Positions 10,080 to 64,000 of a stretch of 64,000 nucleotides of DNA are shown one piece after another. Position numbers and translations under genes: made by a program. The stretch lies in contig JADGIG010000007.1 of NCBI GenBank assembly GCA_018985235.1, positions 1 to 64,000 on the forward strand, read 5' to 3'. Every line of letters starts with the position of its first letter. Position 1 is the stretch's first letter. This stretch comes from Sanchytrium tribonematis. Taxonomy: Eukaryota. The notes beneath the pieces were generated by a model. It was not told the DNA's origin. It made no database searches and worked only from the letters and a program-made list of their open reading frames with translations.

Positions 10080-10885
10080 TCATTGTAAATTTTGCATTTT
10101 TTCAAGGTCTAATTGTAAATCACTTTTTTTCTGCCGCAGCTGTGTTAATAATTGAAAATCCAAACCACGCTCTTTCATTAATTTTGTTTGCCTATTGTTG
10201 ATCGTGACATTTGAAAGTTCATCATATGAAAATTCTCTACGATATAAAGCAAAAAATAAATAGCCAAAGATTGCTGTACCAAAGCCCAGAAAATAAGCTA
10301 TGGGTTCCATAACATCTAAATTAATAAAAATTTACCCCAAGACAAATCCCAAAAAGTCAGCCTTGCCATAACAAAAAATTGCGCGGTCAATCCTATAAGT
10401 CCGGCCCATACGTATCTATTTGCAGATTTACTGGCTTCCTTGATAATCAAGTCATATTTTTGTTCCAATGGGACCAGCTCCTTCTCTACAGCTGCAATTT
10501 GATTAACTATAGGTAAAGTAAGATCATCCATGCTTGGAAGCGTACAAAAAACCATCGAGGGTCCAACCGGAGTAGTTCCATCCGTTTCTTTTCCGATATA
10601 AAAGCCGCCTTCTTTCATACATTCTTTTAAAACAAATTCCAAGGAAGTTAAAGATGAAAGTATAGTCTTTGTATCAGCCAAATAAATTTGAGGTTTGCTA
10701 TTAGAGTCCATGATGCCGTCTAATTTCAATTTTTCAAAAATAGTAAGGATTGGGTACGTCTTTTTAATTGGATACTGGTATGTTTGATTTGCATTCTTAA
10801 AATTGAAAGTAAATATATTGTCGTTCACAGGTTTTAATTCCAAATTTGAAAACTGTCGTCTGGTTACCCTTAAGAATTGATTCAT
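10080..10885 (-). CDS. MCU: Mitochondrial calcium uniporter; exons 10885-10336 and 10315-10080
   Basis: Splicing restores ARLTFWDLSWDVMEPIAYF (DIME-type pore motif). Confidence 0.92.
10316..10335 (-). other. 20-nt spliceosomal intron (MCU), phase 1
   Basis: gtaaatttttattaatttag; joins SW-D-VMEP. Confidence 0.93.
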
Positions 10886-10918
10886 TTTTAATAATGTTTC
10901 AAAAAATTCAAAATTTAT

Positions 10919-12082
10919 TCAACAATGCATTCCATTTTTCTCGCAAAGCCACGGTGCGATTAATATTGCTGAAAAACCAGCACAAGTGATGCCAAAAGTG
11001 TCAGCTAGTGATACAGCTCCCATTAGAAATTCTTTAACATTTTTAGTTCCAGAACTAGCAGAATTCTGTGAAATATCATCCTCATCAGCCAATACCTCAT
11101 ATTCAAGTACTGGATCAAACTTGAGCAAGCAGGCAAATGCGTTGGCATATGTGGAACCACCCAGGAGACCTTCATATAAAACAAATAGACACACAGGTAT
11201 AAAACCAAAAACTTTGTCTAATGACTGACCAATGAAAAGAAAAACGTTAATAAATTGTAGCCCTGCTAATATAAAAAGATATTTGTGATGTGGAATAGTA
11301 TAAAAAGCTACACTTGATCGGCTTAAGAAGACGCCAACTTGATATAGCATCTGAAAAACAACGTAATAATCACGATTACTTTTAAAAAATGAGTCTTCTG
11401 ATACATCAAAAACAATTGTTGGTAGTATTCCTTGATTTATAACATATTCGGAGTAATAAACTAAAAACAAAGGTAGCATAAAAGGAATCACCGCTTTGGA
11501 AACTATTCTTAATTTATCAGATATTGTCTCCATTTTCATTCCTGTCAGATTTACCGACGAACTTTCGACACTTCCTAAAGATCCTCTTCTTAATCCAAAA
11601 TGGTAAGCGAAGTATAGCAATAATGGAAATGGAGAGATGAGCAACATCGTTTGTGCTTTAGTTAATCTAAAGACCGTAGTTAGTAAAAAATACAAAAAAC
11701 TACCACCAAGTCCCGCCATCCCAGTACCACTAAACCACCCTGTAATGTCCTTTGGAAATTGAGAGCTAAGTGCCAGAAAAGACGCTTCACCAAGTCCTGA
11801 GGAAAAGCTTGCTAAAACAACACCACTCAAACTTGCATCAACATTTGAAAATGTATTGAGCAAAAGAGCTGAAATACTTAAAACAACACATATTCTAAAC
11901 CGCATGTCATAACTCATTTCAATGTAAGGCGATATTGATTTTGAAAATAGTCCCGGTACTATGTCTGCAACTAATACCAGACCTTCTAACCCATGGAATA
12001 TATCTGAGGCAGCACTTAAAAAAATGACGTATATAATATTGTTGATTATCCCACAAATGAAAAACGCTAGAGTGGGCTTCAT
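10919..12082 (-). CDS. BTN1: Battenin CLN3/Btn1
   Basis: FFICGIINN..YVIFLSAA, GWFSGTGMAG, EYVINQG, YQVGVFLSRSS, YEGLLGG. Confidence 0.95.
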   Translation of the reverse strand: MKPTLAFFICGIINNIIYVIFLSAASDIFHGLEGLVLVADIVPGLFSKSISPYIEMSYDMRFRICVVLSISALLLNTFSNVDASLSGVVLASFSSGLGEASFLALSSQFPKDITGWFSGTGMAGLGGSFLYFLLTTVFRLTKAQTMLLISPFPLLLYFAYHFGLRRGSLGSVESSSVNLTGMKMETISDKLRIVSKAVIPFMLPLFLVYYSEYVINQGILPTIVFDVSEDSFFKSNRDYYVVFQMLYQVGVFLSRSSVAFYTIPHHKYLFILAGLQFINVFLFIGQSLDKVFGFIPVCLFVLYEGLLGGSTYANAFACLLKFDPVLEYEVLADEDDISQNSASSGTKNVKEFLMGAVSLADTFGITCAGFSAILIAPWLCEKNGMHC

Positions 12083-12264
12083 TCCAGTCGCTTTGAAACA
12101 AATCACGTTTTTGGAGGGAATCTTTTTTTATACCAATGAGACTATTTTAAATAAATTTTAAGTATCTTAGATTCGAGTTTCCGATAAATTATATAGTCTA
12201 TGACCATTTGGAATTTAAGATTATTATAATAAATGTTTCAGCTAATTCGCTCCAAAGTTTCACA

Positions 12265-12915: not shown

Positions 12916-12963
12916 CTTCTGAAGTAAATGATTTATTTTCTTTTTAATAATCTCCTAATTGCC

Positions 12964-18210: not shown

Positions 18211-18231
18211 GCTTATTTATATAAATTCATT

Positions 18232-22952: not shown

Positions 22953-24027
22953 TTATTGTTTCAAACATTCAATAAAATTTGAAAAGAATCTAGTAAAGCC
23001 AGTATCTCTATGCTCATTCAAGCCTCGAAATCTGCGTCTCACAAAAGTATTGATGAGAAGCTGGGAGTCGAACCCATCATTTTGAAACACAGAATACAAC
23101 ATTTCGGCCTCTGCATCTACCAATTCCCTATTTGTGGTAACCTGAAATATATGGACCAAATCGGTTTTTGTTATTTTATCAGAATTTTTACTCTACATGA
23201 ATAAAAAATACTTTTGAAAAAAGTTTAATAGCATAATTAAATTCATCAATATTACTTAGTGCTTCATTAAAAGACAAGAACTCGTCTAATTTCATTTTAA
23301 AATTTGATTCAGGTAGTTTCTGAATTCTTTCACCTAACTCAATTTGTTTGGTTGGATGTGCATAATTAGTTATAATGTAAGCAAAATCTTTTAAATTTAT
23401 AGTCCCATTTTTGCTGTACAAGTCAAATTCTATTTTTAGTAAATCTGATTTAATAGATTTAACAAAGTTTTCAAAATCTCTAAATTTAACAACGTCCGTG
23501 TCACCAAAAAGACTCTTTATCACATCAGTTGGATGAACAGCTTGTTTGGATCCAATTCTCTGAGAAAATCCTGCGCTTTGTCTTGAAAATGTCAAAAGCA
23601 TTTCTTGTAATTCTTCGTCATCTACACCACCAGAATTATTTTTGTCAAACAAATTGAACGCACTTTTTAGACTTCTCAGAGGTATTGTCAATAAAGAAAG
23701 GTAGAATACATATTCGTCAAAACTTATCTTTCCATCTTTGTTTAAGTCTGCCAATAAAAGTGAAGAAGTTTTAGGTATATTAATTTTCGTATTTCTTGTT
23801 ACATGATCCTTACTGTTGTATGGAATTAAAGATCTAACAAAGTCTTCCATAGTCATATATTCGTTATTGAGACTGGCAAAATATTGAAATACTTTTAAAG
23901 GATGGCTGTAGGCTCTAACTCTATTTTCGTAATTTCCGAGTATTTGCTCCCGGTATCCATCGCACTGGACGACAAGTCCACCTAAAGCCAATGCTCCAAA
24001 TCCTTTTCGTAAAATTGGTCGAAACAT
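22953..24027 (-). CDS. MICU1: Mitochondrial calcium uptake protein (EF-hand); exons 24027-23212 and 23192-22953
   Basis: YENRVRAYSHP.KVFQYFAS, MT.EDFVRS, EF hands; spliced C-terminus RGL....DTGFTR. Confidence 0.9.
23193..23211 (-). other. 19-nt intron (MICU1), phase 0
   Basis: gtattttttattcatgtag; joins the two ORFs in frame. Confidence 0.88.
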
Positions 24028-24197: not shown

Positions 24198-27159
24198 ATG
24201 TCTTTTCAACTCAGAGCTCTCACGCGAAAGCAACTGATTCAAGAAAAAAGAAGATGGAAAACAAGTTTATGTTGCGTTGGTTTATGTCCGTTTTTGATGG
24301 TTTTGATCGCAGGTGGAGTAGGTATATTTCTCCAACAATTACTGGCCAGCCAATTGAAATACCAGGAAACCTTGGTATGCTCAAATAGCAATGCTACTGA
24401 TTCCAATGGCTTGTATACCCAGGCTGGTGTGACTTTGGATAAATCAAAAGTTTATGGTGCTACGATCGATGTAATTGCTACAAATTATTACACTGCCCCA
24501 TTTAAATTTTCAAAGAATGGTCCACCAACTGGTGGATCCCAAAGTAGCTGTGTTCGATGGCATACCCAAAATACGCCAGATCAATTCCCTTACAGTAGAC
24601 AAACCAATCAAAGTACATGGTTGGCTGGTGGTGATACATTATTTATACCCGCACCAGCTGGCGGGTGGCTTAATGTTCAGAAATTCGCAAACCAAACCTA
24701 TGCTTTTAAATTGACGCAGTTGCAAACCTATCCTTGGTGGATTGTATCAGGTGATGATCAAGCAAAACTTGGATCAAGAGGTAGCCGACAATATTCGTTT
24801 ACAAATGTATCCGACTTTACAGCAACCAATCCACCTAGTAGAAATGATGCTTCTGGCATTTTTAAAACTATGGGTGAACAGGTTTACATTAATGTTGATA
24901 CGACGAATAAAACCAATCCATTTAGTTATTATGGTGTACCGTTTGCCAAGACAAGCAGTGGAAGTGTTAGCGAGGTAGATGATGCTTTTCAGGCTATCAT
25001 AGCTGATGTACTGGATAAGATCTCCAGAGTTGTAGACAAACCTGACAGTCCAACTTTCCAATCTGATCGATCAATTGCAGACAGAATTAAAATTCAAACA
25101 TCCGCCAACAAGATCGTTCAATCATTACCATGGGGAACTATGATTGTTAATTCTTTTATTCCGAATTCGGTTGTGGATATGGTGCTTCAAGTGGGACATG
25201 ATACGCGAATTGACCAAGCTGCACAGTATACCTCATTAGGACTTCGAAGATTTATGAGTTGGGCTTATGTTGCTCAAGGTGCATTGAAACAAATCGACAA
25301 TTCAGCAGATTTGAATCACGGAATTAGAAACTTTCCGCAATTGGTTAACAACAAAATTGATTTCAATTTTGATTCCTTTTTAGCGGATATCCTATTTCCT
25401 TTTGCTCTTTCCTTTTTGTTCCCTATTTTTGTAGTTACTCTCGTTCGTGAGAAAGAGGACCGTATTGCAATTATGATGAAAATGAATGGGTTAAAGACAA
25501 GCACGTATTATTTCACTCATGCCATCACTTTCTTCATTTTGCATGTTTTGGCATGCGTCGTCTTCACGGTGACTGGTATTGCATTTCGACTAAAGTTTTT
25601 TGTTAATACTGACCCTGGTGTTTATATCTTGTTGTTCTTATTTTGGGGTCTCGTTCAAATTGCAATGGCATTTTTCTTTGCAACAATTTTCGATAAAAGT
25701 CGTCTAAGTCTGATTGTTTCTTTCTTCACCGTGTTGGTTAATATTATTATTAGCTTGGCTTTGGATAGATTGCAAGTCAACGGATACAATACGTTCTTTT
25801 TTATATGGCCACCATTTGCATTTTATAGAGCACTATCGTTGATAAATGCTGGGAGCTACGATTCAGATCTCACTCCTTATACGCTTGCTAATGCAAATCC
25901 CCCTGACAATGTTGGGCTGGCCTTGATTGCATTGAGCTTAGAAACCATTGCTTATATATTTATGGCTTATTATGCAAGTCAAGTTCTCCCATCAGAATTT
26001 GGAACTCAGAAACCTTGGTATTTTCCTTTCGAGTATCTGAAAAATAAAATGAAGAAGAATTCAACCACGGAGGAGGGTACATATACTGCGATAGAAATTG
26101 ATGATAAGGAGTTAACCCAAGAAGACAATGACGTCAAAAATGAAAGAGCGAGAATTGATAAGGGTGAATATGATCCTGAATGTCCACTAATCGTCAAACA
26201 TATGAGAAAGGTTTATCCGAATGGAAAGCTTGCTGTGCGCGATGTCACTTTCGCTGTTGAAAAGAACAGCATTATGGGATTACTTGGGCCAAATGGTGCA
26301 GGAAAAAGTACTTTAATAAGCATTTTAACTGGACTTTATCCACCCAGTCATGGTCAAGCCAAATTAGGCGGCTTTGACATTCACACAGAACAAGACAAGG
26401 TCTTTCAAGTTACTGGTATTTGCCCACAACATGATATATTGTGGCCTGATCTTACGGTGGAAGAACATCTTTACTTTTATGCTAGATTAAAGGGAGTTCC
26501 ACCAGCTAAGGAAAAGGAAGCTGTTACGACTGCTATTGAAAGTGTGAAACTAGCAGCTTTTACCAAAAGACAAAGTGGTGGACTTAGTGGTGGCGAAAAG
26601 CGTAGGTTGAGTATCGCCATTAGTCTGATTGGAGACCCTAGAATTATATTTCTAGATGAGCCAACAACTGGTATATAATTTTTACTTAGGACTGGATCCA
26701 GAAGTTAGAAGAATTATTTGGGATATCATTAGTAAAGCAAGACACGGTAGAACTGTCATTTTAACAACTCACAGTATGGAAGAAGCGGAAAGTCTTTGTC
26801 AAAGAATTGGGATCATGGCAAATGGTAGTATGAGATGTATTGGTGCTCAAGCCAGATTAAAGCAGCAATATGGTAGTGGGTTCCGTATTACATTCAGTAT
26901 GAAAGCGGAGCACCATACTGAAGCTACTGAATTTGTCAAGTCGCTTTTAAAAGAAACGGGATTTCAAATTTTAGATGATTTTGACACATTATGCAATTAC
27001 GAGTTTCCATATTCTCCCGGGATTGTTAGTCATCTTTTTGAGAAAATGGGTGATTCCAAAGAGCATTTCATAGTGGATTGGGGAATTAGTCAAACCAGTC
27101 TTGAGGATGTCTTTCTTCGAATCGTAAAAGAAAGCGACGCAGCAGCTTATGCAGATTAA
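24198..27159 (+). CDS. ABCA-family half transporter (980 aa); exons 24198-26670 and 26690-27159
   Basis: LVREKE..MKMNGL, GPNGAGKST, CPQHDILW, LSGGEKRRL; spliced DEPTTGLDP; LTTHSMEEAE. Confidence 0.93.
26671..26689 (+). other. 19-nt intron (ABCA), phase 1
   Basis: gtatataatttttacttag; restores DEPTT-G-LDP. Confidence 0.96.
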
Positions 27160-28649: not shown

Positions 28650-28935
<286 letters not shown>

Positions 28936-29523: not shown

Positions 29524-29646
29524 CCATAAAATAATTTAAAATCTAGAGGAACCTTAATTAAGCACTCATTTTTTCCAGGATTTTAAAATTGACAAGAATT
29601 TCTGAAATGAATAAAATATGCATTTATCATTGGAAAATTTTTTGGC

Positions 29647-29652
29647 CACGTG
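29647..29652. promoter_or_regulatory. E-box CACGTG upstream of SAH1
   Basis: CCACGTGT about 36 bp upstream of ATG 29688. Confidence 0.35.
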
Positions 29653-29687
29653 TTTTGATATATCTTGAGCGCGAATCACTCCTTGAA

Positions 29688-31011
29688 ATGGCAAATCAAA
29701 CTTATAAAGTCAAAGATATTAACCAATGGGAATATGGTCGAAAAGAAATCGAAATCGCAGAAAACGAAATGCCTGGTTTAATGGCAATCCGAAATAAGTA
29801 TGCTAAAGAACAACCTCTGAAAGGAGCAAGAATTGCGGGATGTCTTCATATGACCATCCAAACAGCAGTCTTAATTGAAACTTTAGTTGCCCTGGGTGCT
29901 GAGGTCACTTGGTCCTCATGTAACATTTACTCCACGCAAGACCATGCTGCTGCTGCAATCGCTAAGACAGGAGTACCAGTTTTTGCTTGGAAAGGTGAAA
30001 CCGATGAAGAGTACTTGTGGTGTATTGAACAATCTTTGCTTTCATTTAAGGATGGTAAGCCTCTCAATATGATCTTGGATGATGGTGGGGATTTGACCCA
30101 ATTGGTTCACGACAAATATCCTCAATTAATGAAGGACGTTAAAGGTGTATCTGAAGAAACCACAACTGGTGTACACAACTTGTACAAGATGTTTAAAAAG
30201 GGTCAATTAAGATGTCCTGCTATAAATGTTAATGACTCTGTCACAAAAAGCAAATTTGACAATCTTTATGGCTGTCGTGAGTCTTTGATTGATGGGATCA
30301 AAAGAGCCACTGATGTCATGATTGCTGGTAAAACAGCCGTTGTTGCTGGATATGGTGATGTTGGAAAAGGATGCGCAATGGCCTTGAGAGGTATGGGTGC
30401 TAGAGTTCTTATTACTGAAATCGATCCGATTAATGCATTGCAAGCAGCTATGGAAGGATATAAGATCATGACTATGGAGGAAGCTGTTAAAGAAGCTCAA
30501 ATTGTTGTAACAACTACTGTATCTATTAATAATTTAGGGGTGTAGAGATATTGTCACTGCTAAGCACTTTGAAGCTTTGCAAGACGACTCAATTGTCTGC
30601 AACATTGGGCATTTTGATATTGAAATCGATGTCGCATGGTTGAAAAAGAATGCTAAATCAGTTTCTAATATTAAACCGCAAGTTGATCGATACACTCTAG
30701 CCAACGGAAAGAGAATCATTTTACTTGCTGACGGAAGACTTGTTAATCTCGGATGTGCCACTGGACATCCATCTTTTGTCATGTCAAATTCATTTTGCAA
30801 TCAAGTTCTTGCTCAAATTGCATTATGGAAAGCGCAACCTGGAGATTATGCTATTGGAGTGCATGTCTTACCAAAACATTTGGATGAAGAGGTTGCTAGA
30901 TTGCATTTGGAGAAATTGGGAATGAAATTGACAAAATTGTCTGATGTACAAGCTGAATACTTGGGAATCCCTCAAGAAGGCCCTTACAAGCCAGATCACT
31001 ATAGATATTAG
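29688..31011 (+). CDS. SAH1: S-adenosylhomocysteine hydrolase; exons 29688-30518 and 30538-31011
   Basis: [30 protein letters not shown], spliced VTTTGCRD, C-terminal PYKPDHYRY. Confidence 0.98.
30519..30537 (+). other. 19-nt intron (SAH1), phase 0
   Basis: gtatctattaataatttag; restores VTTT|GCRDI. Confidence 0.96.
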
Positions 31012-31045: not shown

Positions 31046-31757
31046 TCAAAAGAGCCAACTACCAATGAGAAAACTCATTACCATTAGTACTAAGACCATA
31101 GACATAGGTATACCTTTTTGCTCAACTTGTTTGTATACTTTGGGTGATTTAGGGGACGAAGCTGAAGATTTGGCGAGTTGTGCCTTATAATCTTCAATTT
31201 TTAATTGCAACTCTAAAACTATATAAATGATGACTACCTTCATCTTCTGACCTTTCTGTTTTGCTAGTAGTATTAGTATTCCTTTGAGTTGCTATGTTAT
31301 TTTGGGACAGAGCGGTTGTGACTGCAGCGTCTTTACTTGGAACCATATTGGATTTTGGAATTGTCAAAGCTGGAGAAGTTGTCGGATTGATAGTTTTTGG
31401 CTGTAAAGTGTTACTTGCAGAATCGGGAGATGGCTCTGACTTTTCAATATCTAGAAATTTAACTCTTAATTTATGCTCGTGTGAGGTTCCATCATCCCAT
31501 AATTTGGACCTTGTAGACATTATTAAAAATTTATCTTTATGGCTAGATGGTGGGTGATAGTCTATGGAAATCTCAATGTTAGATTTGGGAGGTATTTCGC
31601 CGCTTGCAGGCTTGACTGTGTATGTTTTTGGAGCAGTGGTGCGTACTTTAAAATGAACAATAGAATCATGTGGATTCTCCAAATTCAAACTAGAGGTTGA
31701 CTCGATGGTGGAATTTCTAAACTCTATATAATGATCCGGTGAAATTGTGAGTGACAT
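31046..31757 (-). CDS. SCS2: VAP/Scs2 (MSP domain + tail anchor); exons 31757-31238 and 31218-31046
   Basis: FKVRTTAPKTYTVKP, KDKFLI, KLRVKF; spliced C-terminal transmembrane segment. Confidence 0.88.
31219..31237 (-). other. 19-nt intron (VAP), phase 1
   Basis: gtagtcatcatttatatag; links the MSP part to the coiled coil and TM tail. Confidence 0.85.
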
Positions 31758-31802: not shown

Positions 31803-32604
31803 TTAATTTTTCCGCTTCTTTTTGATAATACCCATTTCTAGTTGCAACTCGTATTCATCTTCCTTCTTTCCTATCCTTGAACTAAATTAAAAGAAATTAC
31901 CTTCTGGCTTCCTCCCGCTTAATATCTTCTGCTGTGGCCTCCATATCGTCTAAATCATCATCAGAAAAATAGCTGTAGTTTCTCTTACGCCCATATAAAC
32001 CCTGAACTATATCAGTTATGCTTTCTTCATTGTTTGGGGAAGGTGACATATCAGTATCATTGTGATTTTCATGCTGTTTTTTCGACGAGGTATCTTTATA
32101 AATTTGAGTCTTCGTTGGTCTGTCTTTAAAAGCGTAATCAACTTGAGGAGGAATCCTTTTTTCGATGTCCCTATTAGGATTCACTTTTTGCTCTATTTTT
32201 TTCTTGTTCAAAATGGTCTTTTCTTTTAGTATTTCATCATAATGGTCATCCTCGTCTGGTATTGACTGCAAAATTTCTTTGGGCTTGGGTGGAGGGAGGT
32301 ATTCCCCTTTTTCCAATTTCCGCTCTAATTCTTTCTTGTCAACAATATGAAAAGACTCAATCGGCTGACTTAGATTTGAGTTTCCTTTAAGCGCCTCCAT
32401 TAGCTGCTTATCTGTCTCGCTCAATGTAGGTGGTTTAGCTCTTCGAATTTTCGGTTTATTACTTAATTCACCTTTTTCCTTTCTTGGTGGTATATTTACT
32501 GATTTCTTCTTTTGGGGCTGTTGGATCGGCACTTTTTCCTGCTTAATATTTGAAAAGAGTCCATTCATTCTATTCTTGAAGTTTTTCAGTTGATTTGAAG
32601 ACAT
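31803..32604 (-). CDS. SPT2: Spt2-like chromatin protein; exons 32604-31901 and 31881-31803
   Basis: Spliced C-terminus DDMEATAEDIKREEARSSRIGKKEDE. Confidence 0.75.
31882..31900 (-). other. 19-nt intron (SPT2), phase 2
   Basis: gtaatttcttttaatttag; restores EEAR-S-SRIG. Confidence 0.88.
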
Positions 32605-35389: not shown

Positions 35390-35939
35390 TTACATCAAAT
35401 GGCAGCAGCTATTGGTTTTTTGAGCTTGTTTATAAAAAGTCTTTGATGTGTTTGACAGAACCTCCGATTTGGTTACCAAATCGTCTAATCTACGTAAATT
35501 TTAAATACTTTTGGCCTCTTTCAAGAACTGAATTTATAGTGTCATGTAAAACAACTTTAGTCTCATCCAACTCTTTTTGCACTCCTAATAATTGATCTAC
35601 TTGCTCTGGTTTCTGGTATTCTTTCAGAAGTGCCTCAATTTGACTCGCTGTCAAGGCTTTTGTAAGCAAATGATATGCCACTCTTGATGGATAGGACTGA
35701 TCTGTAATGCATACAGCCACATCTCCAGATTGACAATAACAATGGATCATGTAAGTGTCTTGCTTCACGGATTGTCTCTGGCCAGGTAGGGTCCTGTCAG
35801 CAATAGTTTTCGCAGCAAAATTCATAAATTCTTGAACACTTGATCTTTGAAAGTAAGAAAAATCATAGAGGTCGAATGCAGATTGCTTCACTTTGCAGTC
35901 TGGTTTTGGAGAAAATGTTATCACACCATATAATTTCAT
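35390..35939 (-). CDS. YKT6: R-SNARE Ykt6; exons 35939-35509 and 35489-35390
   Basis: [17 protein letters not shown], spliced LERGQKLDDLV...KTNSCCHLM. Confidence 0.97.
35490..35508 (-). other. 19-nt intron (YKT6), phase 2
   Basis: gtatttaaaatttacgtag; restores RGQ-K-LDDLV and the CCAAX tail. Confidence 0.96.
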
Positions 35940-38494: not shown

Positions 38495-39116
38495 ATGGAC
38501 GACGAATTTGTGGATATAGTTGGCGACACGGATGAAGAAATCATAGATGTAGTAACAATAGACAAAAATCCACCAGACGCTATCCGACCATTAATAAAAT
38601 TCCAGGGATTTACCTGTAAAATTTGTGAGAAGGTCATGAGAGACAAAGCAGGATTAACGAGGTATTTTATTTTTACTCAGACATATGAAAAATCTTCATA
38701 CTAAAAAAGTACCATGCTTTTTTTGTAAAAAAGAATTAAAAACTTTTGGACGATCCGATAGTTTAAGAAGCCATTTGATGACTTGTCAGAGTTTCGTAAA
38801 AATAGTACGACACTACTATGGGGGTGATATTTCAAAGGAAGATTTTAAAACAATAACCTGGAGGTATAGCCTTGAATCTGGAAAGAAAAACCGGTTGCCA
38901 CGGAATTTTGATGAAAGCGATTTACAACAAGTTTGCCAAATTGAATGTGTTTATGATGCTCCCGTCACTGACGTAGAATTATTTCAATTAAACAACCTTG
39001 TCAATCAATATAAATTAACCAAATCTCAATCTAACAATTTTAATCCAAATATACAAAATACTTTATGTGATAACCAAAAATCTACATACTTGAGCATTGA
39101 AAAATCAAATGATTAA
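38495..39116 (+). CDS. C2H2 + C2HC zinc-finger protein; exons 38495-38661 and 38681-39116
   Basis: Spliced CKIC...LTRHMKNLH then CFFC..FGRSDSLRSHLMTC. Confidence 0.8.
38662..38680 (+). other. 19-nt intron (zinc-finger gene), phase 2
   Basis: gtattttatttttactcag; restores LT-R-HMKNLH. Confidence 0.9.
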
Positions 39117-39141: not shown

Positions 39142-41474
39142 TTATTCTTCTAATTTTCCATTCATGCAAACGCAATCGCAACCAACTACCGCACAGCTCT
39201 TGTGATGGGCAAACCATTCCATCAAATGATTATAATGTCCCCCGTGTCTACCTAAATTATTAAACATATACAGAGTTGACACCAAACGTAAAATTGGTCG
39301 GTGCTCAGCCCCATCGAATTTGTGTCGACTGGCAAGGAACACAAGCTGCAAAGTGGCAATGATTGCCCGCAATTAGAACAAGCCCCAAACCGTATAGGGT
39401 GTCCCACTTGCTGCTGACGCTGGCCAAAAAATCTACTAGTATTTCTCATAAATTGGTTTGTAGAAAGCAAAGAAAGACCACAAAATTGACATTTCAAGTG
39501 AACCTTACTGGCTTTTACACTCTCAGGATATTTAGCACCATAAATGATATCAAATGAGGCTCTTTGATCATAAAGCTCCCATTTGTTTAAGAAAGACCTA
39601 TATTTCTCAATCCAAGACTTGCAAATATCTAAATGGCTCGATGGTATAGAATCTACTTGGAGACAAGCTAAAACAACAGTTTGCAAATCGCCTGTGTAGT
39701 CCACATAATTCTGAAATAAACGAAATGCATCTTCTGAACTAGTACCCGTCAGAAATAATCCAAATAGACTACCCTGCTGTATTTTCAGTTCTGTTTCTCG
39801 TTTTAGATAAAGATTTAAACTTTCATTGTCGAGATATCTCATTGCAATGTAAATTTTGTCAACTAAAGGTAAATTAGGTATATCAAGCACCGGTATCCAA
39901 TTAAATTCATACAAGAAAATCAACATTGCTTTCAGAAAAGGACAAGACGCTCTATCTGCCAAAACTTTAAGATTGGCTGAAGCTGGGCTTTTTAGCGAGT
40001 AGCCTAATATGACAGTCCCAATCAATTGCAAATTAGAGTCATTGCTATTTATCAAACAGTTTGTGCATGAATATAAATCACTGGCAAAAAAGTATCGCGC
40101 AGCGGCCTCTGCGATTCTTCCATGATCAACCAGTTCTTCGAGAGACTTGGAAAAAAGAGTTTCTGTATCTGGATAGCCCAAAAACAAAAGCGCTCTTAGT
40201 CTTACAGATGATGTAATGATATTATCAAATGGAGCATCCAACAAAGTTAATTCTTCATCATTGGCATCCTGGCTTGATTGCATCATTCCAATTAATCCAC
40301 TGTTGATATATTTAAATTCGTCCAAATCTTTCATCGATGATAGATAGGCCATCCAATTCCAGAAATGGACTACTTGGCTATCGCTAGATCCAAAAATTGG
40401 ATGAGAATACATACCGATATCATTCTCTTTATTCATAATACGGGCGTTAATCATAGCACTAGGCCCGTATCCAGACACTGCTCTTTCTTTCATGACTAAT
40501 TGAATATCTTTAATTTCATTTTCAATCAAAAATTTTGTCATTGATGTCGGACATATTGCTTGAGACGATTTAAATGAACAAACTAAGGGTTCTTGATCCC
40601 AGCTGATTTTTTGGACAAGTTCATATTCATTGGCGAGGGACAATTTTTTCTCACAAATAAATAATGGATGCTTGGATGAAATTTTGGAAACACCAAAACT
40701 GAAAGACAATATTGTAGAATTTTTGTGTTTTTCTTCGTAAGATTGATAAAGCTTGAGAATGGGCTCATTGTCAACTCTGTGAATGTCCCAGAATTTCATT
40801 GATTTTGTGTCTTTTGAAAGGGCTCCTACTATAGAACTTCTGCTTTTCGAGTAATCCATTTTTACACAGTTTCTAAAATTTAAAGAATACACTTCTTGTA
40901 ATGGATTACGGATATCCCATATTTTAATTGCATCGTCATTTCGACTCATAAATCCAAAATCACAAAACGGATCTTTTTGAATACCAAAACATGCTTTTGT
41001 CGAGTAGGTTACAGCTGGATCGTCTTTTCTTGTATCGTAAATTCTAACAAACTTGTTATTTAGACCAGATATGATAACGCTTGCATCTCTCCATGCTGCC
41101 GAGCAACAGTGGTCAGATATCCCAAATTCGAATTCTTTTAAACCATCATACGTCGATACCACAACACTCGGCTCATTGCGACTTCTTTCAAAAGCGATCA
41201 CCAATTTCCCGTTTAAGTCAACTGTGGATATAGGGCGTGGTGTGCCCGAAATAGCTTTTATCATTTCAAATTTTTTGGACAGATCATATATCATCACCGT
41301 TCCATTACTTAATCCTGTTGCAAATATGTTTTCAGTAAGAGCTGTTGTTCTTGTCAAGGCGTGCAACGGGTAAGATGATATTTTTGCCTCATTTTGATAT
41401 TGATCCAACCTATGAGAAGATACTACAAAAACGGAATCATCAGTACAATGCAGATTTAATTTCCTGTAGTTCAT
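39142..41474 (-). CDS. MIOS: GATOR2/SEA subunit Mios/Sea4; exons 41474-39272 and 39251-39142
   Basis: WD40 N-terminus, MKERA..GY, YVD.TGDLQT, LP.CSLC, spliced WCQLCRHGGH..H..EWF. Confidence 0.93.
39252..39271 (-). other. 20-nt intron (MIOS), phase 1
   Basis: gtatatgtttaataatttag; restores WCQL-C-RHGGH. Confidence 0.95.
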
Positions 41475-43911: not shown

Positions 43912-45403
43912 TCACCGCAAACTGTTTGGTGACATTCTTGCCACGAGAACCCCGATTTGCTCACAAGCAACTCTAGACTTAAGCCACTCATGACTAATTA
44001 ATTCTCCAGAAGACCATCTACAATTAACATCCACTTCTAGACAGCAAGCTAAAAATTCTTTTGTTAGAACCCCAGTGAGATTCGATTTTTTTAATCGAGG
44101 TGTCCCATTTGTTACAATTAGATAGAGTGCTTTTAATGGTTCTTCTGACAAATAAGGTGGCTCTCCTTCTAGCATCTCTATAAGCATGATACCAAGCGAC
44201 CAACAATCAACTTTAAACCCATAATTTTTCTGTTTGATAACCTCGGGAGCCATCCAATATGGAGTTCCTACCATTGTGGCTCTCCTGTCTTGCCGATTGA
44301 CGCGAGCACAAAAGCCAAAGTCCGCTAAATAAAATTAAAATACTTAATTTGATATGCCCAGTTTTGTCCAGCAGAATATTGTCACTTTTTATGTCTCTAT
44401 GTATCACTTCTTTAGAATGCAAAAAAGATATACCCTGCAATGTTTCGTATATAATACATGCCATTTCGTTTTCCTTAAAAGAGGTTTTAATGTTCTTTGT
44501 GTGGTAATCAATTAAATTAGTTAAAGAGCAATTCATGTACTCCATGACGACGTATAAATCGCCTTTCAAATAATGAGAATCTACAAATTCGACTAAGTTC
44601 GGGTGACGAAAGGTTTTTATAATATTCAGCTCGTTAATGATAAGCTCCTTTCTGGGCTGATTCTTTAAATGTATTCTTTTGATGGCCATATAAATTGAAT
44701 TTGCGCGATTTGAATATTTTGCAAGATAAACACTACCACTTGCCCCTTGGCCAAGCTTCTTAATTAAAGTATAGCATTTGTGAGGGTCTGTCGGATTACA
44801 AAGTGGAACAAGTTGATCGACCATTTCTTCAAAAGTCATTTTTCTACGTTTCTTCGGCAAGTCGGGTTTGATATTTTCCTTAAGGTCGGGTTTTTGTGGA
44901 CGATCTTTTTTCAAAATTTTATAGTCATTGTCTTTAGTAGATGTATAAAATTCAAGAACATTAAGTACATTTTCAGGATCTTTCTCAACATCGGCTTTGT
45001 TGATTTTAGAACCCTTTAACAATTGATGCCAATGTGCCGGCAAACCGGTGAATTCACCTTTTTCATGATTATATCCAACATGGCATAGATGTTTGAATTG
45101 ACTAGGTTTTGAAATCTCGCTTTTACAATCCATAATACGGAAAACATCATCATCCTCTTCAAAAATTAGGGAAATTTTTTTCTCGCCTCCTTTTTCTCTA
45201 TAATGTACCGATACATCGAGCTGGTCGGTTCTTTCCACCCGCTCTATGTCTTCAAAAAAAATTAAATAATTAGGATGGTCAACACAGTCACGTCTTTTAT
45301 GAATAGTAAGAGAATCGTGTTTGAGAAGCACAAATCTTTTTTGAGCCAACCCTAGAATGCCAGATTTAACAGCGCATGATATGCTTTTATTTTCAGCTAA
45401 CAT
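43912..45403 (-). CDS. CLA4: PAK kinase, Cla4-type (PH + CRIB + kinase); exons 45403-44344 and 44324-43912
   Basis: [32 protein letters not shown], spliced [21 protein letters not shown]. Confidence 0.9.
44325..44343 (-). other. 19-nt intron (PAK), phase 1
   Basis: gtattttaattttatttag; restores KL-T-DFG. Confidence 0.96.
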
Positions 45404-46430: not shown

Positions 46431-47547
46431 ATGCCAAGTGAGATAAAGTCTGTCTTGATTACGGGAGGAACTGGCTTTGTAGGCCGACACTTAGTAGATT
46501 ATCTATTAGACTCAGGAATTACTGATATCAAAGTAGTTGACAAGTCATTACCTTCATTGTCTTGGCTAAATGAAAAACACAAATCTGCCTTGGGCAAAGT
46601 GCAGTTCGTTCAAGCAAATTTATGTTTAGACAGCGGCGTAGCAAAAGTTTTTGATAAAAGTTACGATTTGGTTGTAAACTTAGCCTCGGAAACTAAATAT
46701 GGCCAATCAGAAGAAATTTATAAAGAAAAAGTCCTTGATGTGGCTCTGAGAATAGCTAATGCAGCCGTCGGAAAGACGAAGGTATTTGTAGAGCTTTCTA
46801 CCGGACAGGTTTATGACCCAAAAGACAAGCCGGTAAAGGAAAGTGGAAAAACTAAACCTTGGACAAAATTAGCAGAGTACAAATTACAAACCGAACAAGA
46901 GCTCTCCAAATTAGACTTAAATTTAGTGATTTTAAGACCAGCCATTATCTATGGTGTTGCTGATATTTATGGAATTACTCCCAGACTCATTATTGGTAAA
47001 GTCTATCAGCACATCAAGGAAACTATGGAATTGTTATGGACTGGTGATTTGGCAATCAACACGGTTCATGTTACTGATGTTGTCCGTGCTATTTTGTTCA
47101 CAGCCAGATACCACATGCAGAAATTAGCAAAGGGAGAAATTTACAATTTAGCAGACAAAAGTAATTCTACGCAAGAAACTATTAATGCTCTATTGCAAAA
47201 TATTTTCGGTATTAAAACTTCGTTTGTTGGATCTGTTGCTTCTCAGTTCGCTAAATTGAATTTGACTACTGTTGTTCAAGATGTGAACGAAAAACACATG
47301 GCACCATGGAGTGAATTGTTGAAGAAGGAAGATTTAAACAGTTTTTAATTTTCATTTAGGTCATCTGACTCCATATTTGGATAAGGAGCTGCTTTATAAC
47401 CACAGTTTATCTATTGACGGGTCAAAAATTGAAGACTTGAAATTGGATGGGGAATCATTTAAACTTAAGCATCCAAACATCAATGAGGCGTTACTTAAAG
47501 AAGTTGTGGATGACTTTAAACAATGCAAATTATGGCCAAGTGCTTAG
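46431..47547 (+). CDS. NAD-dependent epimerase/dehydratase family protein; exons 46431-47340 and 47360-47547
   Basis: TGGTGFVG, LRPAIIYG, VHVTDV; spliced LTPYLDKELL...SIDGSKI. Confidence 0.88.
47341..47359 (+). other. 19-nt intron (epimerase), phase 1, GTT donor
   Basis: gtttttaattttcatttag; extends the ORF by about 60 codons. Confidence 0.85.
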
Positions 47548-48904: not shown

Positions 48905-49844
48905 ATGGCAACTTCGCAAACAATCGAAGTAATTGAAGTCGCATTTTCCGGAGGCCAAGGCAGAGATGGAGTCGAGTTTGGACCAGAGACACTTATTAAT
49001 CATGGTTTGTTAAATCAACTAAAAGGTCTTGGTTACAACGTTCAACACAATAAGTCTTTTAAAAATATTCCTAAACCCGAAAACGATCCAATTGTTGCTG
49101 GCTGTAAAAATTCAAAGTATGTATCCGCTGCAAACAAGAGTCTTTTCTCTGCTGTTAAACAAGCTTGTGAAGTTCATAAAACTACACTTGTAATCGGCGG
49201 AGACCATTCACTTGCTATAGGCTCAATTGCAGGCTCCGCAGCAGTTTATCCTGATATCTGTGTTATTTGGGTTGATGCACATGCTGATATTAATACTCCA
49301 GATACCAGTGGTAGTGGGAATCTACATGGGTGTCCATTGTCCTTCTTATTAAAGCTGCCATCTACGGAAAAAGTACCAGAATTGAGTTGGGTCCCAAAAT
49401 GTTTATCTCCAGACCGACTGGTGTATATTGGACTCAGAGATGTAGATGAAGGCGAAAGAAAAATTTTAAAAGAGCACAAAATCAAGGCTTTTAGCATGCA
49501 TGATGTTGACAAATATGGCATAGGAAGAGTTGTTGAAATGGCATTGGACCACGTCAATCCGAAAAGGGATCTTCCTATTCATATGTCGTATGATGTGGAT
49601 GCTTTAGACCCTACAGTAGCGCCAGCAACTGGTATATCTAATTTATTTAGGAACACCTGTAAGAGGTGGTTTGACTTTCCGCGAGGGTCACTATATAGCA
49701 GAGGCTATAGCAGAAACCGGGAAATTAGTTGTAATGGACATCATGGAAGTCAATCCAATTTTGGCAATTCAAAAAACCGACGAACCTACCGCGACTGTAG
49801 CTTGTTCTTTAATTCGAGCGGCATTTGGTGAAACGTTGCTTTGA
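48905..49844 (+). CDS. CAR1: Arginase; exons 48905-49631 and 49651-49844
   Basis: GGDHS, DAHADIN, GNLHGCP, SYDVDALDP; spliced ATGTPVRGGL..REG, EVNP. Confidence 0.97.
49632..49650 (+). other. 19-nt intron (arginase), phase 1
   Basis: gtatatctaatttatttag; restores AT-G-TPVRGG. Confidence 0.96.
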
Positions 49845-54191: not shown

Positions 54192-54220
54192 TGAAGTTGG
54201 TGTTTTAAAGTGCCAATTTA

Positions 54221-54818
54221 TTACAAAATAATGCATTTTTTCTGGGCCTTCGCTTTTTGTGGAGGAGCAAGAACAGCACGGATAGCTAAATTAATAACAA
54301 GTACCTTCATCAAAGACGTTTTTTAATCCTTTTTGGGTAAGAGCAGAGCACTCCAAATATTTAACACTTCCTATTTCTTTTGCCATTTGAAGCCCTTGTG
54401 GGTATGTAATTGGAGACATTCTTTTCTCTCTCAACTTTTCAATTGTCTCTCTATCTTCTCTCAAATCCAGCTTAGTTCCTACTAGAATAATAGGGACTCC
54501 AGGTGCATGATGAGATATTTCAGGATACCATTTGGTTCGAACATTTTCAAATGATGGGGGACTGACCAGTGAAAAACATATCAAAAACACATCTGTTTGA
54601 GGATAAGACAATGGCCGTAGACGATCATAATCTTCCTGACCAGCAGTATCCCATAATCCCAAATTAATCGGTTTTCCGTCAACCATCACATTAGCTGAGT
54701 AGTTATCAAAAACCGTAGGAATATACTCTCCTGGAAACGCATTTGTAGTATATGAAATTAATAAGCAGGTCTTTCCAACAGCTCCATCTCCAACAACAAC
54801 ACATTTTATAGCTTGCAT
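54221..54818 (-). CDS. RAC1: Rac GTPase, full length 192 aa; exons 54818-54305 and 54285-54221
   Basis: [46 protein letters not shown]; spliced tail KKCIIL. Confidence 0.98.
54286..54304 (-). other. 19-nt intron (Rac), phase 1
   Basis: gtacttgttattaatttag; restores FDE-A-IRAVL and the CAAX box. Confidence 0.96.
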
Positions 54819-54960: not shown

Positions 54961-55972
54961 ATGTTTCGCCCTGATGAGATTCTTAATCAATTTTTATCCA
55001 ATACAGGTCAGATAACTAGCGACTGGGTCCTTCCAAGCTTTGGAGCTATTCCTAAAAAGACTCTACATACTCCTGATGATATAAATAAATGGAGCAAGAG
55101 TAAAGGCCTTGGCTTATTATTGACAACCTTATTACAATTTACTGATTCTGTTGAAGGTGTGACTGAAATACCTGCTAAATTATCGGAAGAAACTAAAATT
55201 ATTCTTGACTTCTTCCACAAGATTAATTTGATGACTTTAAAATTGGGAAATCAAGTAGAATCAAGCGACGACATCAGATTTGGGAATCCAAAGGTGATGG
55301 ATCTTTACAAATGGATTTATGACAACACTCCGGTACATTTAAACAGTTTATCTACTGTTAAAACAGCATTAAAAGAGGAACTATTTTATTATTTCAATAA
55401 TTCATTTGGTTCATCTCGATTAGACTTTGGAAGTGGTCATGAACTTTCTTTTTTGGCATTTATGACTATTATTTATAAATCAAACGAAAACGCAGACTTT
55501 TCACGCGAGCTTGTTCTTGTGATTTACTCGCAATACATCACTCTGATCCGCGGCATCATTAAAATATTTCATTTAGAGCCTGCAGGTACTACTATCTTAA
55601 TTAGGGAGTCATGGAGTGTGGGGAGTTGATGATTATTACTTATTACCATACTTATTAGGTGCCTCACAATTATGCAACTCAAGGCTAAAGCCATCGGATA
55701 TCCACAATCCCGAAATTTTATCACATTTTCAAACTAAAGATACAAAATTATATTTATATTTCGATGCTATAAGATATATAAAGAGTAACAAAACTGGACC
55801 ATTTTTCGAGCATTCGCCCATGCTCAATGATATTTCAAATTCAAAAAATTGGGTCAAGGTAAGACAGGGAATGTTGCGCTGGTATATCATGGAATGCTGC
55901 ACTAAATTTGTAGTTGTACAACACTTCTTCATGGGTCAAATTTTTACTCTCGAAGAATATGTGCGAAAGTAA
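54961..55972 (+). CDS. PTPA: PP2A activator PTPA (Rrd1/2); exons 54961-55585 and 55605-55972
   Basis: RFGNP, RLDFGSGHEL, spliced LEPAGSHGVWGVDDY, K.GPFFEHSP.L, KF.VVQHF. Confidence 0.95.
55586..55604 (+). other. 19-nt intron (PTPA), phase 1
   Basis: gtactactatcttaattag; restores EPA-G-SHGVW. Confidence 0.96.
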
Positions 55973-56024
55973 ATTGGTTTTGTACTTTTTGTGATGTGAA
56001 CTTTTTAAGGAGTAAACACAAAAT

Positions 56025-56591: not shown

Positions 56592-56631
56592 TAGTATTTA
56601 TAGACACTCAATAATAAATTCAGTGCAATTG

Positions 56632-57363: not shown

Positions 57364-57398
57364 ATTTAATATATAGCAGTAATTTCAAGGAGTTGCAA

Positions 57399-59313: not shown

Positions 59314-59316
59314 TTA

Positions 59317-60003: not shown

Positions 60004-60018
60004 GGAGGTTTTCAAAAT

Positions 60019-61881: not shown

Positions 61882-61925
61882 AAATTTAAAGGTCACGTCG
61901 CTAAAAAGTTACAGTTTATTTTGAT

Positions 61926-64000
61926 TCAATTGGCCGACCCTGGAGTTCTAAGCTCTATCACACAGTCATCGGATATAGTTTCAGGAAGTAAAGGAATATC
62001 TTTAGACTCAAAAATTTTGTCAAAATTTTCAATCAAGAATGTCACAAAGTCATTTGGCTGATTGTCGAAAAAATTGTTAGGATCGTCCTTGAGCTTTATA
62101 AGTGTTGGCCCAAAAACAATGCCGATATTCCTAGGATTCATTTTATTATATTCTTCAAAAGAAGCTACCCTAAATTAGATCAATTTACCTTTGCAGATGT
62201 TGAATAAGGTAGTATAATGTATAGTAATGAGATGGTAGTAATTTTTTAATGGAATTTTTAAAAAAGATTAACGAATCATCGGAAGGTTTAGGTTCCTTGA
62301 GAATATATACTGTTGTTTCATATATGTCTGTAGAAATAAGTGGGATTTTCAAATCTCGGAAATAAGCTTTTAAAAGAGACGATACTGAAAGAACGTCGAT
62401 GAGATCATGCGCCATGTCAATGGTGTTACCTTGTTCCCACTCATCTTGCATATTCTTCATTTCCTTCATCGCACCAGCCCTTCGATAAATTCCCTCAGTT
62501 TTTAAACCTTTTTCATCAACAACTCTCAAACAAGCAGTTACAATATTAGGAATTGGTTTGCCCTCGAAGTCCGCTCTTTCTTGCAAAAATCCACCGAAGA
62601 GGACAACTTTTTGTTTCTTTAACTTAGCAATAGCCAAGCCTTTCAATTGTTTTGCACGCAAAGATCCCTCCATGAGTCTTAAAGTTTTAGCTCTGTTAAT
62701 ATCTTGTGGTTGATCGTCTTCATCTTGTTTTTGCTTTTTGATAAGATTATTTGCTTTGTCTCTCCAAAACTCTTTCTTGCCTTTATCTTCAGCTAAATTA
62801 CTGTTTGAAACATTCTCGAGACTTTCCCTAGAGCCTTTGGCGTCTATATCATGTTCTCTTGGTGATTCAGGACTTGTTGGTTGCTGAAATTTTTCAGATT
62901 TTTTAGCTGTACTTACTACTTCATTTTGTCTGAACTTACAGACTTCGTATTCCTTTACTTTTTCACGAATTTCTGTCAGAATTGTGGCTTTGTCGGCAAT
63001 CAAGGATTTAATTTCGCTAGTTAAAGTATTTTTTTGCTCTTCCAATGGTGCCAGTAACGATAACAATTTCGCTATTTCGGAGTCGGATGCGATAACTCCA
63101 TTTTCAGCTCTCTTTCTCAACATTTCTTGTAAGACTTTACACTGCTTCTCAGACTGATTTCTCAAATTTTCCTCATATTTAGAGTCAGATTTTTGTTTTT
63201 CAAGTTCTGAAAGCTTGACATGCAATTCACCAATGAGTAGCTCATATTTGAGCTTCAAATTATTGTAATCGGAGGACTTGTCTTCTTTTTCTTTAGCTAT
63301 AATTTCATGTTGTTTTTTTATTCCACTGATATTTATTTCCAACGACCTTAATTTCTCCAAGTCAAACCTATGCTCTTCTCTTTCTTTATCCAAATCTTTT
63401 ACTACTTTAATAAATTCGTTGTCCAAAGTTGATAATTGCATTTGAAGCCTAGAGACTTTTTCTAATTGGATTTGTAAGGATATTTCTAAATCTTTCTTTG
63501 ATTGAGTTAATTGCTTGAGTTCTTTGCCAATTTCTGAATTAAAAGAACTCAGTTGCTGTTTCGTTTTGGTTTCTGACTCGGCAGTGTTTTTAAATCCCGA
63601 TAATTGTAGTTCATAAGAATGAATTATTTGTCTTGATTCATCAAGTTGTTTTTCAACTTGAATTTTAGACTGTCTTACCAACATTAATTCATCTTTTAGC
63701 TCTTGCAACTGGTCTTCCAAGTAGGATTTAGTTTGCTGAAGTTCTGAAAATTCCTCAATTGTGCAAGAATTTTTTTTCAATTCATCAAGATGATACAATG
63801 CTTCTCTGTATCGAACTTTCTCTAATTCCATGCTATGTTTATAATGATCGAAATCCTCTAAAGCCTTACGACTCAAGTCTTTCAATTTTTTCAGCTGTTC
63901 TTGGAGCTCTATATTCAAGGCTTGTGATTTTTGAAGTTCTTTTTTAGCATGTTCGTGCTCCTCATTGCGAGATTGCTTCGGAACCTCTGTTGTTTTAAGA
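61926..64000 (-). CDS. Coiled-coil RhoGAP, 5' end outside the window; last exons >64000-62189 and 62169-61926
   Basis: IP.IV..C, GL.TEGIYR, SLLKAYFRDL; spliced HLQRV....NKMNPRNIGIVFGPTL. Confidence 0.92.
62170..62188 (-). other. 19-nt intron (RhoGAP), phase 2
   Basis: gtaaattgatctaatttag; restores HLQ-R-VASF. Confidence 0.95.

What the first reader, a model, noticed from the sequence alone, without database searches (positions are those of the whole stretch)
10316..62188. Invariant T(-8) and A(-6): branch point fused to the 3' splice site
Seen: aligned on the final G, all 17 introns end T-H-A-n-n-H-A-G (taatttag, ttacttag, tcatgtag, ttatatag, ttacgtag, ttactcag, ttaattag, taatgaag and others), with A at -6 and T at -8 in 17/17; the two Rac introns are the same sequence. 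Donors are GTA in 16/17 with little consensus beyond +3, and there is no room for a polypyrimidine tract. Known: TnA is the branch-point core, and Stentor tiny introns also have a conserved A six bases from the 3' end. Inference: the branch A sits at -6, giving a lariat loop of about 14 nt and a convergent steric minimum; AG selection by fixed distance could reduce the need for U2AF.
Basis: partly seen in the sequence, partly recalled or inferred. Interest (0 to 1): 0.8.

Follow-up and report, generated by a model that had tools for sequence, protein, structure and literature searches.

The report
Tiny 19-base introns in sanchytrid fungi
Genes in this compact fungal genome are interrupted by stretches of only 19-20 bases that look like introns and all carry an A six bases from their end, likely the branch point, a layout known from ciliates but missed by the public protein predictions for this fungus.

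Summary
The 17 GT-AG inserts (16 distinct: 14 of 19 nt, 2 of 20 nt) all have T at -8 and A at -6, far above chance. A pyrimidine at -5 (15 of 16) completes the ordinary branch motif. The window is from a sanchytrid fungus, grouping 100/100 with Amoeboradix gromovi. Relatives' unspliced read-through proteins imply the same inserts, with A at -6 in 4 of 4 determinable 19-nt cases. A branch A at -6 is likely but unproven: no RNA run was listed. The geometry is known: Stentor and Blepharisma share this 3' module, and Yarrowia's spacing puts the branch A at -6 too. Two side claims fail. A 14-nt loop is not the minimum (Stentor's is 10), and A. gromovi keeps U2AF1, U2AF2 and SF1; Slu7 and Prp18 are the factors missing from its annotation. 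What is new is near-fixed 19-nt introns in a true fungus, absent from its public proteome and not found in my literature searches. All 16 also lie within 500 nt of the stop codon. The scan had no note on this genome; it noted longer tiny introns in Rozella and Neolecta.

The parts
10316..10335 (-). 20-nt intron in the MCU gene, phase 1; predicted branch A at 10321
   Evidence: Pfam MCU profile 117|118 across the junction
23193..23211 (-). 19-nt intron in an EF-hand gene (MICU-like, name recalled), phase 0; predicted branch A at 23198
   Evidence: frame restoration only
26671..26689 (+). 19-nt intron in an ABCA-type transporter gene, phase 1; predicted branch A at 26684
   Evidence: both exons hit ABC families; the join restores the ABC D-loop (motif recalled)
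28849..28867 (+). 19-nt intron in the second Rac copy, identical to 54286-54304 and not counted separately; predicted branch A at 28862
30519..30537 (+). 19-nt intron in adenosylhomocysteinase, phase 0; predicted branch A at 30532; position shared with three relatives
   Evidence: Pfam 87|87; homologues P0003, P0005; read-through in P0002, P0121, P0122
31219..31237 (-). 19-nt intron in an MSP-domain (VAP-like) gene, phase 1; predicted branch A at 31224
   Evidence: ends not fixed by homology (13 frame-restoring options)
31882..31900 (-). 19-nt intron in SPT2, phase 2; predicted branch A at 31887
   Evidence: the Pfam SPT2 match stops at profile 81 of 109 at the end of exon 1
35490..35508 (-). 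19-nt intron in Ykt6, phase 2; predicted branch A at 35495; position shared with relatives
   Evidence: junction matches P0149 and P0150; P0146-P0148 diverge or stop at the same site
38662..38680 (+). 19-nt intron in a zinc-finger gene, phase 2; predicted branch A at 38675; the only one in the 5' half of its gene
   Evidence: the join restores a C2H2 spacing (pattern recalled)
39252..39271 (-). 20-nt intron in MIOS, phase 1; predicted branch A at 39257
   Evidence: both exons match MIOS chains in the PDB
44325..44343 (-). 19-nt intron in a PAK kinase just before the DFG motif, phase 1; predicted branch A at 44330
   Evidence: Pfam Pkinase 139|139
47341..47359 (+). 19-nt intron in an NAD-dependent epimerase gene, GTT donor, phase 1; predicted branch A at 47354
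   Evidence: frame restoration only
49632..49650 (+). 19-nt intron in arginase, phase 1; predicted branch A at 49645
   Evidence: Pfam 224|223; most homologue matches end at residue 242-245 and the junction matches homologues
54286..54304 (-). 19-nt intron in Rac, phase 1; predicted branch A at 54291
   Evidence: junction matches P0126 and P0128
55586..55604 (+). 19-nt intron in PTPA, phase 1; A at both -6 (55599) and -5, the one intron without Y at -5; position shared with three relatives
   Evidence: both exons meet at residues 186-187 of PDB 2ixn; P0151-P0153
58807..58825 (+). 19-nt intron in VID27, AAG acceptor, phase 1; predicted branch A at 58820
   Evidence: Pfam 184|189, a loose fit
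62170..62188 (-). 19-nt intron in a RhoGAP gene, phase 2; predicted branch A at 62175
   Evidence: Pfam 120|120

Best explanation
These 19-20 nt GT-AG inserts break conserved genes of a sanchytrid fungus and are likely U2-type spliceosomal introns whose invariant A at -6 is predicted to be the branch point, so that branch site and 3' splice site form one 8-base signal. Shown: the inserts, their length, the T-n-A-Y-n-n-A-G ending, and inserts at the same positions in relatives. Inferred: U2 pairs with a wobble, T-rich version of TACTAAC at -11 to -5. The A at -6 attacks the donor, giving a 14-15 nt lariat loop and a 5-nt tail, and the first AG, 4 nt on, is used. The intron is likely defined as one unit, because the donor has almost nothing beyond GTA and never +5G. 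U2AF and SF1 are probably still present. Slu7 and Prp18 may have been lost, because so short a branch-to-AG distance would not need Slu7.
For: Invariance and chance tests. Y(-5) in 15 of 16 (P 0.03) and U2-pairable flanks at 39 of 64 against 30.8 (P 0.02). Junctions match homologues or Pfam profiles for 10 of 16. Of 11 read-through tails from relatives (read by hand), 5 fix a 19-nt intron: A(-6) is determined in 4 and present in all 4, and Y(-5) is present in 5 of 5. Two more give 21 and 22 nt with T(-8), A(-6), T(-5) if their stop codon is the TAG acceptor; that would show 3' anchoring. Same spacing in print: Stentor branch A at position 10 of 15 (PMC9505925), the Blepharisma 15-nt motif (PMC13685798), and Yarrowia with 2 nt between TACTAAC and AG (PMC2483917). 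The A. gromovi annotation lists Prp8, Prp22, Prp17, Isy1, Cwc25, Yju2, U1-70K, Dbr1, U2AF1, U2AF2 and BBP, and no Slu7 or Prp18. Slu7 is dispensable at 9 nt or less (review PMC10158995).
Against: No spliced read, lariat or snRNA was seen, so splicing and branching are inferred. n = 16 from one window. Five junctions are not fixed by homology. In the window A(+14) is also invariant, so 3' anchoring rests on T(-8) 16 of 16 against T(+12) 15 of 16 and on two conditional relatives. The PTPA intron fits the branch motif better at -5. T(-8) could not be determined in 4 of the 5 length-fixed relatives, and 4 of 11 tails stop too early to fix a length. A 19-nt GT-AG stretch at 32865-32883 (-) has A at -7 and T at -6 and is unresolved. 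The spliceosome inventory is from a relative and covers 3838 of 7220 proteins, so the Slu7 and Prp18 blanks are weak. The ciliate branch A that I lean on is itself assigned from conservation.
Confidence: 0.8

Rival explanations
1. The introns are real, but T(-8)/A(-6) is an extended 3' splice-site signal read by a protein such as U2AF or SF1 (as with the C. elegans TTTCAG consensus), and branching is loose or occurs at an upstream A.
For: U2AF1 and U2AF2 are kept in A. gromovi. Upstream T-n-A-Y matches at -9 to -13 exist in 13 of 16 introns. Strong 3' consensus without a fixed branch site is described for C. elegans.
Against: The upstream matches vary in position and are absent in 3 of 16; they would need loops of 7-12 nt. 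The -11 to -5 profile follows the U2-pairing pattern, and two A. gromovi introns read N-A-A-Y at -8 to -5.
Confidence: 0.1
2. The branch A is placed by distance from the 5' end (+14), and the 3' end follows as the next AG; the -6 invariance is a by-product of fixed length.
For: A(+14) is 16 of 16 in the window. In myxozoans the conserved A's move away from the AG as introns lengthen (PMC13644364).
Against: T is 16 of 16 at -8 but 15 of 16 at +12. In the inferred 21- and 22-nt introns of relatives +14 is a pyrimidine while -8, -6 and -5 are T, A, T (conditional on a TAG acceptor).
Confidence: 0.06
3. The shared letters reflect descent from one mobile intron (introner) or selection for in-frame stop codons, not a splicing signal.
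For: TAA makes up 7 of 16 of the T-n-A triplets; 15 of 16 introns hold a stop triplet in some frame.
Against: 9 of 16 triplets are TTA or TCA and none is TGA. Interiors differ. Positions are shared with relatives whose PTPA is only 43-47% identical, and an unrelated arginase (P0155, 54% identical) diverges at the same site.
Confidence: 0.02
4. The inserts are assembly errors or unspliced frameshifts.
For: No spliced transcript was seen; this assembly has at least one likely error, in the short Rac copy.
Against: GT-AG ends, one length class, and matching inserts at the same codons in separately assembled relatives. The joins give full-length proteins without stops in 16 of 16.
Confidence: 0.02

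Closest known systems
15-16 nt introns of heterotrich ciliates: Stentor coeruleus (PMC9505925, parts 1-3 of 6 read) and Blepharisma undulans (PMC13685798, passages)
   Same: GTA donor, AT-rich body, near-fixed length, and the same 3' module with T(-8), A(-6), T(-5) and a 5-nt tail; proposed canonical U2 pairing.
   Different: Here 19-20 nt with a 14-15 nt loop, none of 16 divisible by three, and placed near gene 3' ends. Stentor's are 15-16 nt with a 10-11 nt loop, mostly 3n, and 5'-biased. Unrelated lineage.
Branch-anchored 3' ends of Yarrowia lipolytica, Trichomonas and Giardia (Irimia and Roy 2008, PMC2483917; abstract, sections 9, 10, 26 and part 1 of 13 read)
   Same: No polypyrimidine tract and a fixed branch-to-AG distance; Yarrowia's 2-nt spacer puts the branch A at -6 in a fungus.
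   Different: Those use a strict TACTAAC motif, and Yarrowia's introns are long. Here only T and A are invariant, the donor is weak and the whole intron is 19 nt. That paper found no branch signature in its three short-intron lineages.
18-21 nt introns of the Bigelowiella natans nucleomorph (PMC6009652, passages)
   Same: Same length range; GT-AG ends; reported as efficiently spliced.
   Different: No discernible branch A there, and 3.1 introns per gene; here an invariant A and about 0.3 introns per gene.
Mikrocytos mackini 16-17 nt introns (PMC10245619, section 7 read); myxobolid and dicyemid 22-27 nt introns (PMC13644364, part 1 of 3 and passages)
   Same: Parasites with very short introns; conserved sequence in Mikrocytos; U2AF1 and U2AF2 kept in myxozoans.
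   Different: Mikrocytos keeps only 17-19 spliceosomal proteins, while A. gromovi keeps many. Myxozoan A's are weak and not at a fixed distance from the AG. I could not see the Mikrocytos logo.

Membership tests
U2-type spliceosomal intron | GT...AG ends | tested here: met
   17 of 17
U2-type spliceosomal intron | Removal restores a reading frame collinear with homologues | tested here: met
   open frame in 16 of 16; homologue or profile support in 10 of 16
U2-type spliceosomal intron | Branch motif able to pair with U2 | tested here: met
   T(-8) and A(-6) 16 of 16, Y(-5) 15 of 16, flanks P 0.02, assuming the canonical U2 motif quoted
U2-type spliceosomal intron | Precise removal from RNA through a lariat | not testable with these tools
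   no RNA holder listed
U2-type spliceosomal intron | Spliceosomal proteins and snRNAs in the organism | tested here: inconclusive
   proteins annotated in the relative A. gromovi; no genome held; no Rfam match in the window
Branch-anchored 3' splice site (Yarrowia, Trichomonas, Giardia type) | Fixed branch-to-AG distance and no polypyrimidine tract | tested here: met
   A at -6 in 16 of 16, with 3 bases between it and the AG
Branch-anchored 3' splice site (Yarrowia, Trichomonas, Giardia type) | Strict ACTAAC branch sequence and strong donor | tested here: not met
   C at -9 in 2 of 16, A at -7 in 7 of 16, G at +5 in 0 of 16
Heterotrich-type tiny intron | A at -6 within a T-n-A-T-n-T-A-G end and a GTA donor | tested here: met
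Heterotrich-type tiny intron | 15-16 nt long, mostly 3n | tested here: not met
   19-20 nt; 0 of 16 are 3n; no convincing hidden in-frame candidate
Introner (mobile intron family) | High similarity among copies at lineage-specific positions | tested here: not met
   interiors differ; positions shared with divergent relatives

The most novel reading that the evidence does not exclude
Sanchytrids run a distinct fungal splicing regime. The intron is a single 19-nt unit with branch point and acceptor fused, and exon ligation works without Slu7 and Prp18. Introns survive only within about 500 nt of the stop codon because their recognition depends on coupling to 3'-end processing, the reverse of the 5' bias of other intron-poor fungi.
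Probability: 0.2. Interest if true: 0.82.

Novelty: new variant of a known kind. Interest (0 to 1): 0.6.

Why it matters
These would be among the shortest introns known in fungi (microsporidian minimum of about 22-25 nt recalled; E. cuniculi mean 35.8 nt). They add an independent origin of the ciliate-type A(-6) module, which points to the 5-nt tail rather than the loop as the recurring limit. They combine very short length with a sharp branch signal, against the pattern in PMC2483917. Practically, 9 of 10 unspliced ORFs I looked up stand as such in the public collection, from EukProt. Sanchytrid proteomes, called without an intron model, therefore hold truncated or split proteins; 16 of 53 genes here are affected, which may bear on gene-loss claims for the phylum. 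The 3'-end clustering, if genome-wide, would test models of intron loss and of coupling between splicing and 3'-end formation.

Tried and rejected
No whole genome is held, so no genome-wide logo or snRNA search was possible. No RNA holder listed; one DNA run, X1, may be the source and is not independent. Rfam found nothing in the window. A metagenome scan with an intron-spanning SAHH pattern gave 0 matches; a Ykt6 alignment scan gave 312 pattern hits and 0 confirmed. So I have no DNA from relatives, only protein read-throughs. The first coding model was overfitted and was dropped. Joins between neighbouring ORFs at about 4410, 7030, 51716, 53619 and 61901 were rejected because the downstream frame has its own start or Pfam family, or the upstream gene ends normally; the pair near 7030 has no Pfam match and stays open. 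The top in-frame 18-nt candidate (40873-40890, -) aligns without an insertion to a GATOR2 chain and is coding. The arginase search gave junction support but no informative read-through from a close relative. Stop-codon selection and introner origin were rejected. Two primary papers were not held (PMC3809491, PMC1369409), so the Slu7 distance rule is taken from a review passage. Only the start of the S. tribonematis annotation sheet could be searched, and two supplements of PMC8371127 were too large to read.
Full report
Source. The window is 34.6% GC with no N and is packed with eukaryotic genes. Its adenosylhomocysteinase exon 1 is 92% identical to P0002, whose 90% cluster contains an Amoeboradix gromovi protein, P0121. 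In a 30-row tree the window, A. gromovi and three ENA proteins form a clade with 100/100 support (one gene, deeper nodes mostly open). Published sanchytrid genomes are 10.5-11.2 Mb at 34.6-36.3% GC (PMC8371127, section 6 read). I take the window to be a sanchytrid fungus other than A. gromovi. No genome is held.

The introns. A motif scan showed an excess at 19 nt: 20 hits against a mean of 7.6 at other lengths, P 1.3e-4. A separate ORF-joining search that ignored the motif listed 12 of the 16 distinct introns and added the GTT-donor one; its filters missed PAK, arginase, Rac and Ykt6. The final set is 17, with the two Rac introns identical, giving 14 of 19 nt and 2 of 20 nt. Each join gives an open frame to a stop (16 of 16). 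Pfam profiles run on across the junction for MCU (117|118), adenosylhomocysteinase (87|87), PAK (139|139), arginase (224|223), PTPA (182|181), RhoGAP (120|120) and, loosely, VID27 (184|189). Homologues fix the junction for adenosylhomocysteinase, Ykt6 and Rac, PTPA and arginase, and support MIOS. Each locus has 2-13 frame-restoring alternatives. For five genes (EF-hand, MSP-domain, SPT2, zinc finger, epimerase) the exact ends rest on parsimony, and for ABCA on a recalled motif.

The motif. A(-6) and T(-8) are each 16 of 16. Column probabilities from each intron's composition are 1e-9 and 2.8e-4, and 1 of 200,000 shuffles gave two invariant columns. Decoy GT..AG 19-mers have both letters in 26 of 323, and T-rich decoys in 7 of 103. 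With a score blind to -8, -6 and -5, 15 of the 17 introns ranked in the top 45 of 3389 sense candidates; the VAP and RhoGAP introns did not. The consensus is thus a T-rich wobble form of TACTAAC with the bulged A at -6. Donors are GTA in 15 of 16, +5G in 0 of 16 and +6T in 14 of 16. One limit: A(+14) is also 16 of 16, because both 20-mers have AA there. PTPA fits the motif better at -5.

Relatives. Public proteins of relatives were called without introns, so their tails read through the inserts. I back-translated 11 tails from 10 proteins (frames checked by hand). In five (P0121, P0002, P0146, P0149, P0153) the neighbouring exon is recognisable in the shifted frame and fixes 19 nt. A(-6) is forced by the codons in four and present in all four, Y(-5) is present in all five, and T(-8) falls on a free third position in four. 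Two of the five are a Ykt6 intron that the window lacks. P0122 and P0147 give 21 and 22 nt with T, A, T at -8, -6, -5 if their stop is the TAG acceptor; this is the best, though conditional, evidence for 3' anchoring. Four tails stop too early to fix a length. Two metagenome scans brought no DNA.

Mechanism. The likely route is U2-type splicing with the branch A at -6, a 14-15 nt loop, a 5-nt tail and use of the first AG. Fixed distance and first-AG choice cannot be told apart here. The A. gromovi annotation (supplement 4 of PMC8371127, searched by term; its sheet ends within the stored part) lists U2AF1 (E 7e-57) and BBP, U2AF2, Prp8, Prp22, Prp17, Isy1 and Upf1, and U1-70K, Dbr1, Yju2 and Cwc25. 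Slu7, Prp18 and U1C gave no hit by name or by recalled identifiers, but only 3838 of 7220 proteins are annotated. A review states that Slu7 is unnecessary when the branch-to-3' distance is 9 nt or less (PMC10158995, passages). The gene content therefore does not support the U2AF-reduction idea; a Slu7/Prp18 loss is the better, still weak, lead.

Comparison. Stentor introns of 15-16 nt have the A at position 10 or 11, a 10-11 nt loop and a 5-nt tail (PMC9505925). Blepharisma has the same 3' motif (PMC13685798). In Yarrowia the 2-nt spacer after TACTAAC puts the branch A at -6 (PMC2483917; my arithmetic from their definition). The fused geometry is therefore known, and the 14-nt loop is not a minimum. 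Nucleomorph introns of 18-21 nt show no branch A (PMC6009652). Mikrocytos introns are 16-17 nt and conserved (PMC10245619). Myxozoan A's are weak and shift with length (PMC13644364). I found no description of sanchytrid introns. The search for Sanchytrium plus intron gave 8 papers, none on this by title or abstract start. The two sanchytrid papers mention intron only in a reference title. Broader searches (top 20-40 rows seen) showed nothing. Most subscription papers are outside this library.

An unplanned result. All 16 introns lie 65-488 nt upstream of the stop codon, one per gene. Fifteen of 16 are in the 3' half (binomial P 2.6e-4; KS within host genes P 2e-5). The 500-nt threshold is post hoc. 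Around the starts of 53 gene models, 9 motif matches were found: 2 are already-listed introns, 6 have GC donors and 1 is a 23-nt stretch inside an intact ORF. Fungi usually lose 3' introns and keep 5' ones (PMC8476143, passage). Caveats: starts are first-Met guesses, UTR introns cannot be seen, and the relatives' extra Ykt6 intron lies in the 5' part of a short gene, though still about 430-450 nt from the stop (by hand).

Earlier notes. None exists for this genome. Notes on Rozella (25-32 nt) and Neolecta (about 37 nt) describe longer tiny introns; I did not test them.

Verdict. The steric-minimum and U2AF claims are not supported. This is a new variant of a known kind: near-fixed 19-nt introns with a ciliate-type 3' module in a fungal phylum where they appear unreported and are missing from the public proteome. 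Interest 0.6.

Noticed in passing
whole window, 16 intron-bearing genes: Every intron lies 65-488 nt from the stop codon, one per gene, 15 of 16 in the 3' half; the two longest genes (TAF2, RRP5) have none. This is opposite to the usual fungal 5' bias.
   Followed up: partly
window 28656-28905 (+) against 54221-54818 (-): The second Rac copy lacks 321 nt in frame. A 570-nt contig of run X1 holds those bases between the same flanks, so the deletion is likely an assembly error between two near-identical full copies.
   Followed up: yes
window 32865-32883 (-): A 19-nt GT-AG stretch with a textbook-looking donor near a gene's 3' end has A at -7, not -6; removing it would only shorten the C-terminus. 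It is a possible exception and is untested.
   Followed up: partly
exon-1 ORFs of Rac, Ykt6, arginase, PTPA, MCU, VAP, epimerase and EF-hand genes, and the exon-2 ORF of PAK: 9 of 10 unspliced ORFs looked up stand letter for letter in the public collection, from EukProt; A. gromovi proteins show the same truncations.
   Followed up: yes
window 35390-35939 (-), Ykt6: Intron content differs among relatives: A. gromovi (P0146) has an extra upstream intron that the window lacks, and P0149 has that one but lacks the downstream intron.
   Followed up: partly
all 16 introns: None is a multiple of three, so retention would shift the frame in every case; Upf1 is annotated in A. gromovi.
   Followed up: partly
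window 10080-10885 (-) and 22953-24027 (-): An MCU gene and an EF-hand gene resembling its regulator MICU (name recalled) lie 12 kb apart.
   Followed up: no
window 29607-31011 and 54961-55972: Adenosylhomocysteinase and PTPA, 24 kb apart here, are two ORF numbers apart on one A. gromovi contig, a sign of partial synteny.
   Followed up: no
window 6090-7758 (-): Two overlapping ORFs without Pfam matches; they could be two genes or one gene with an atypical intron.
   Followed up: no
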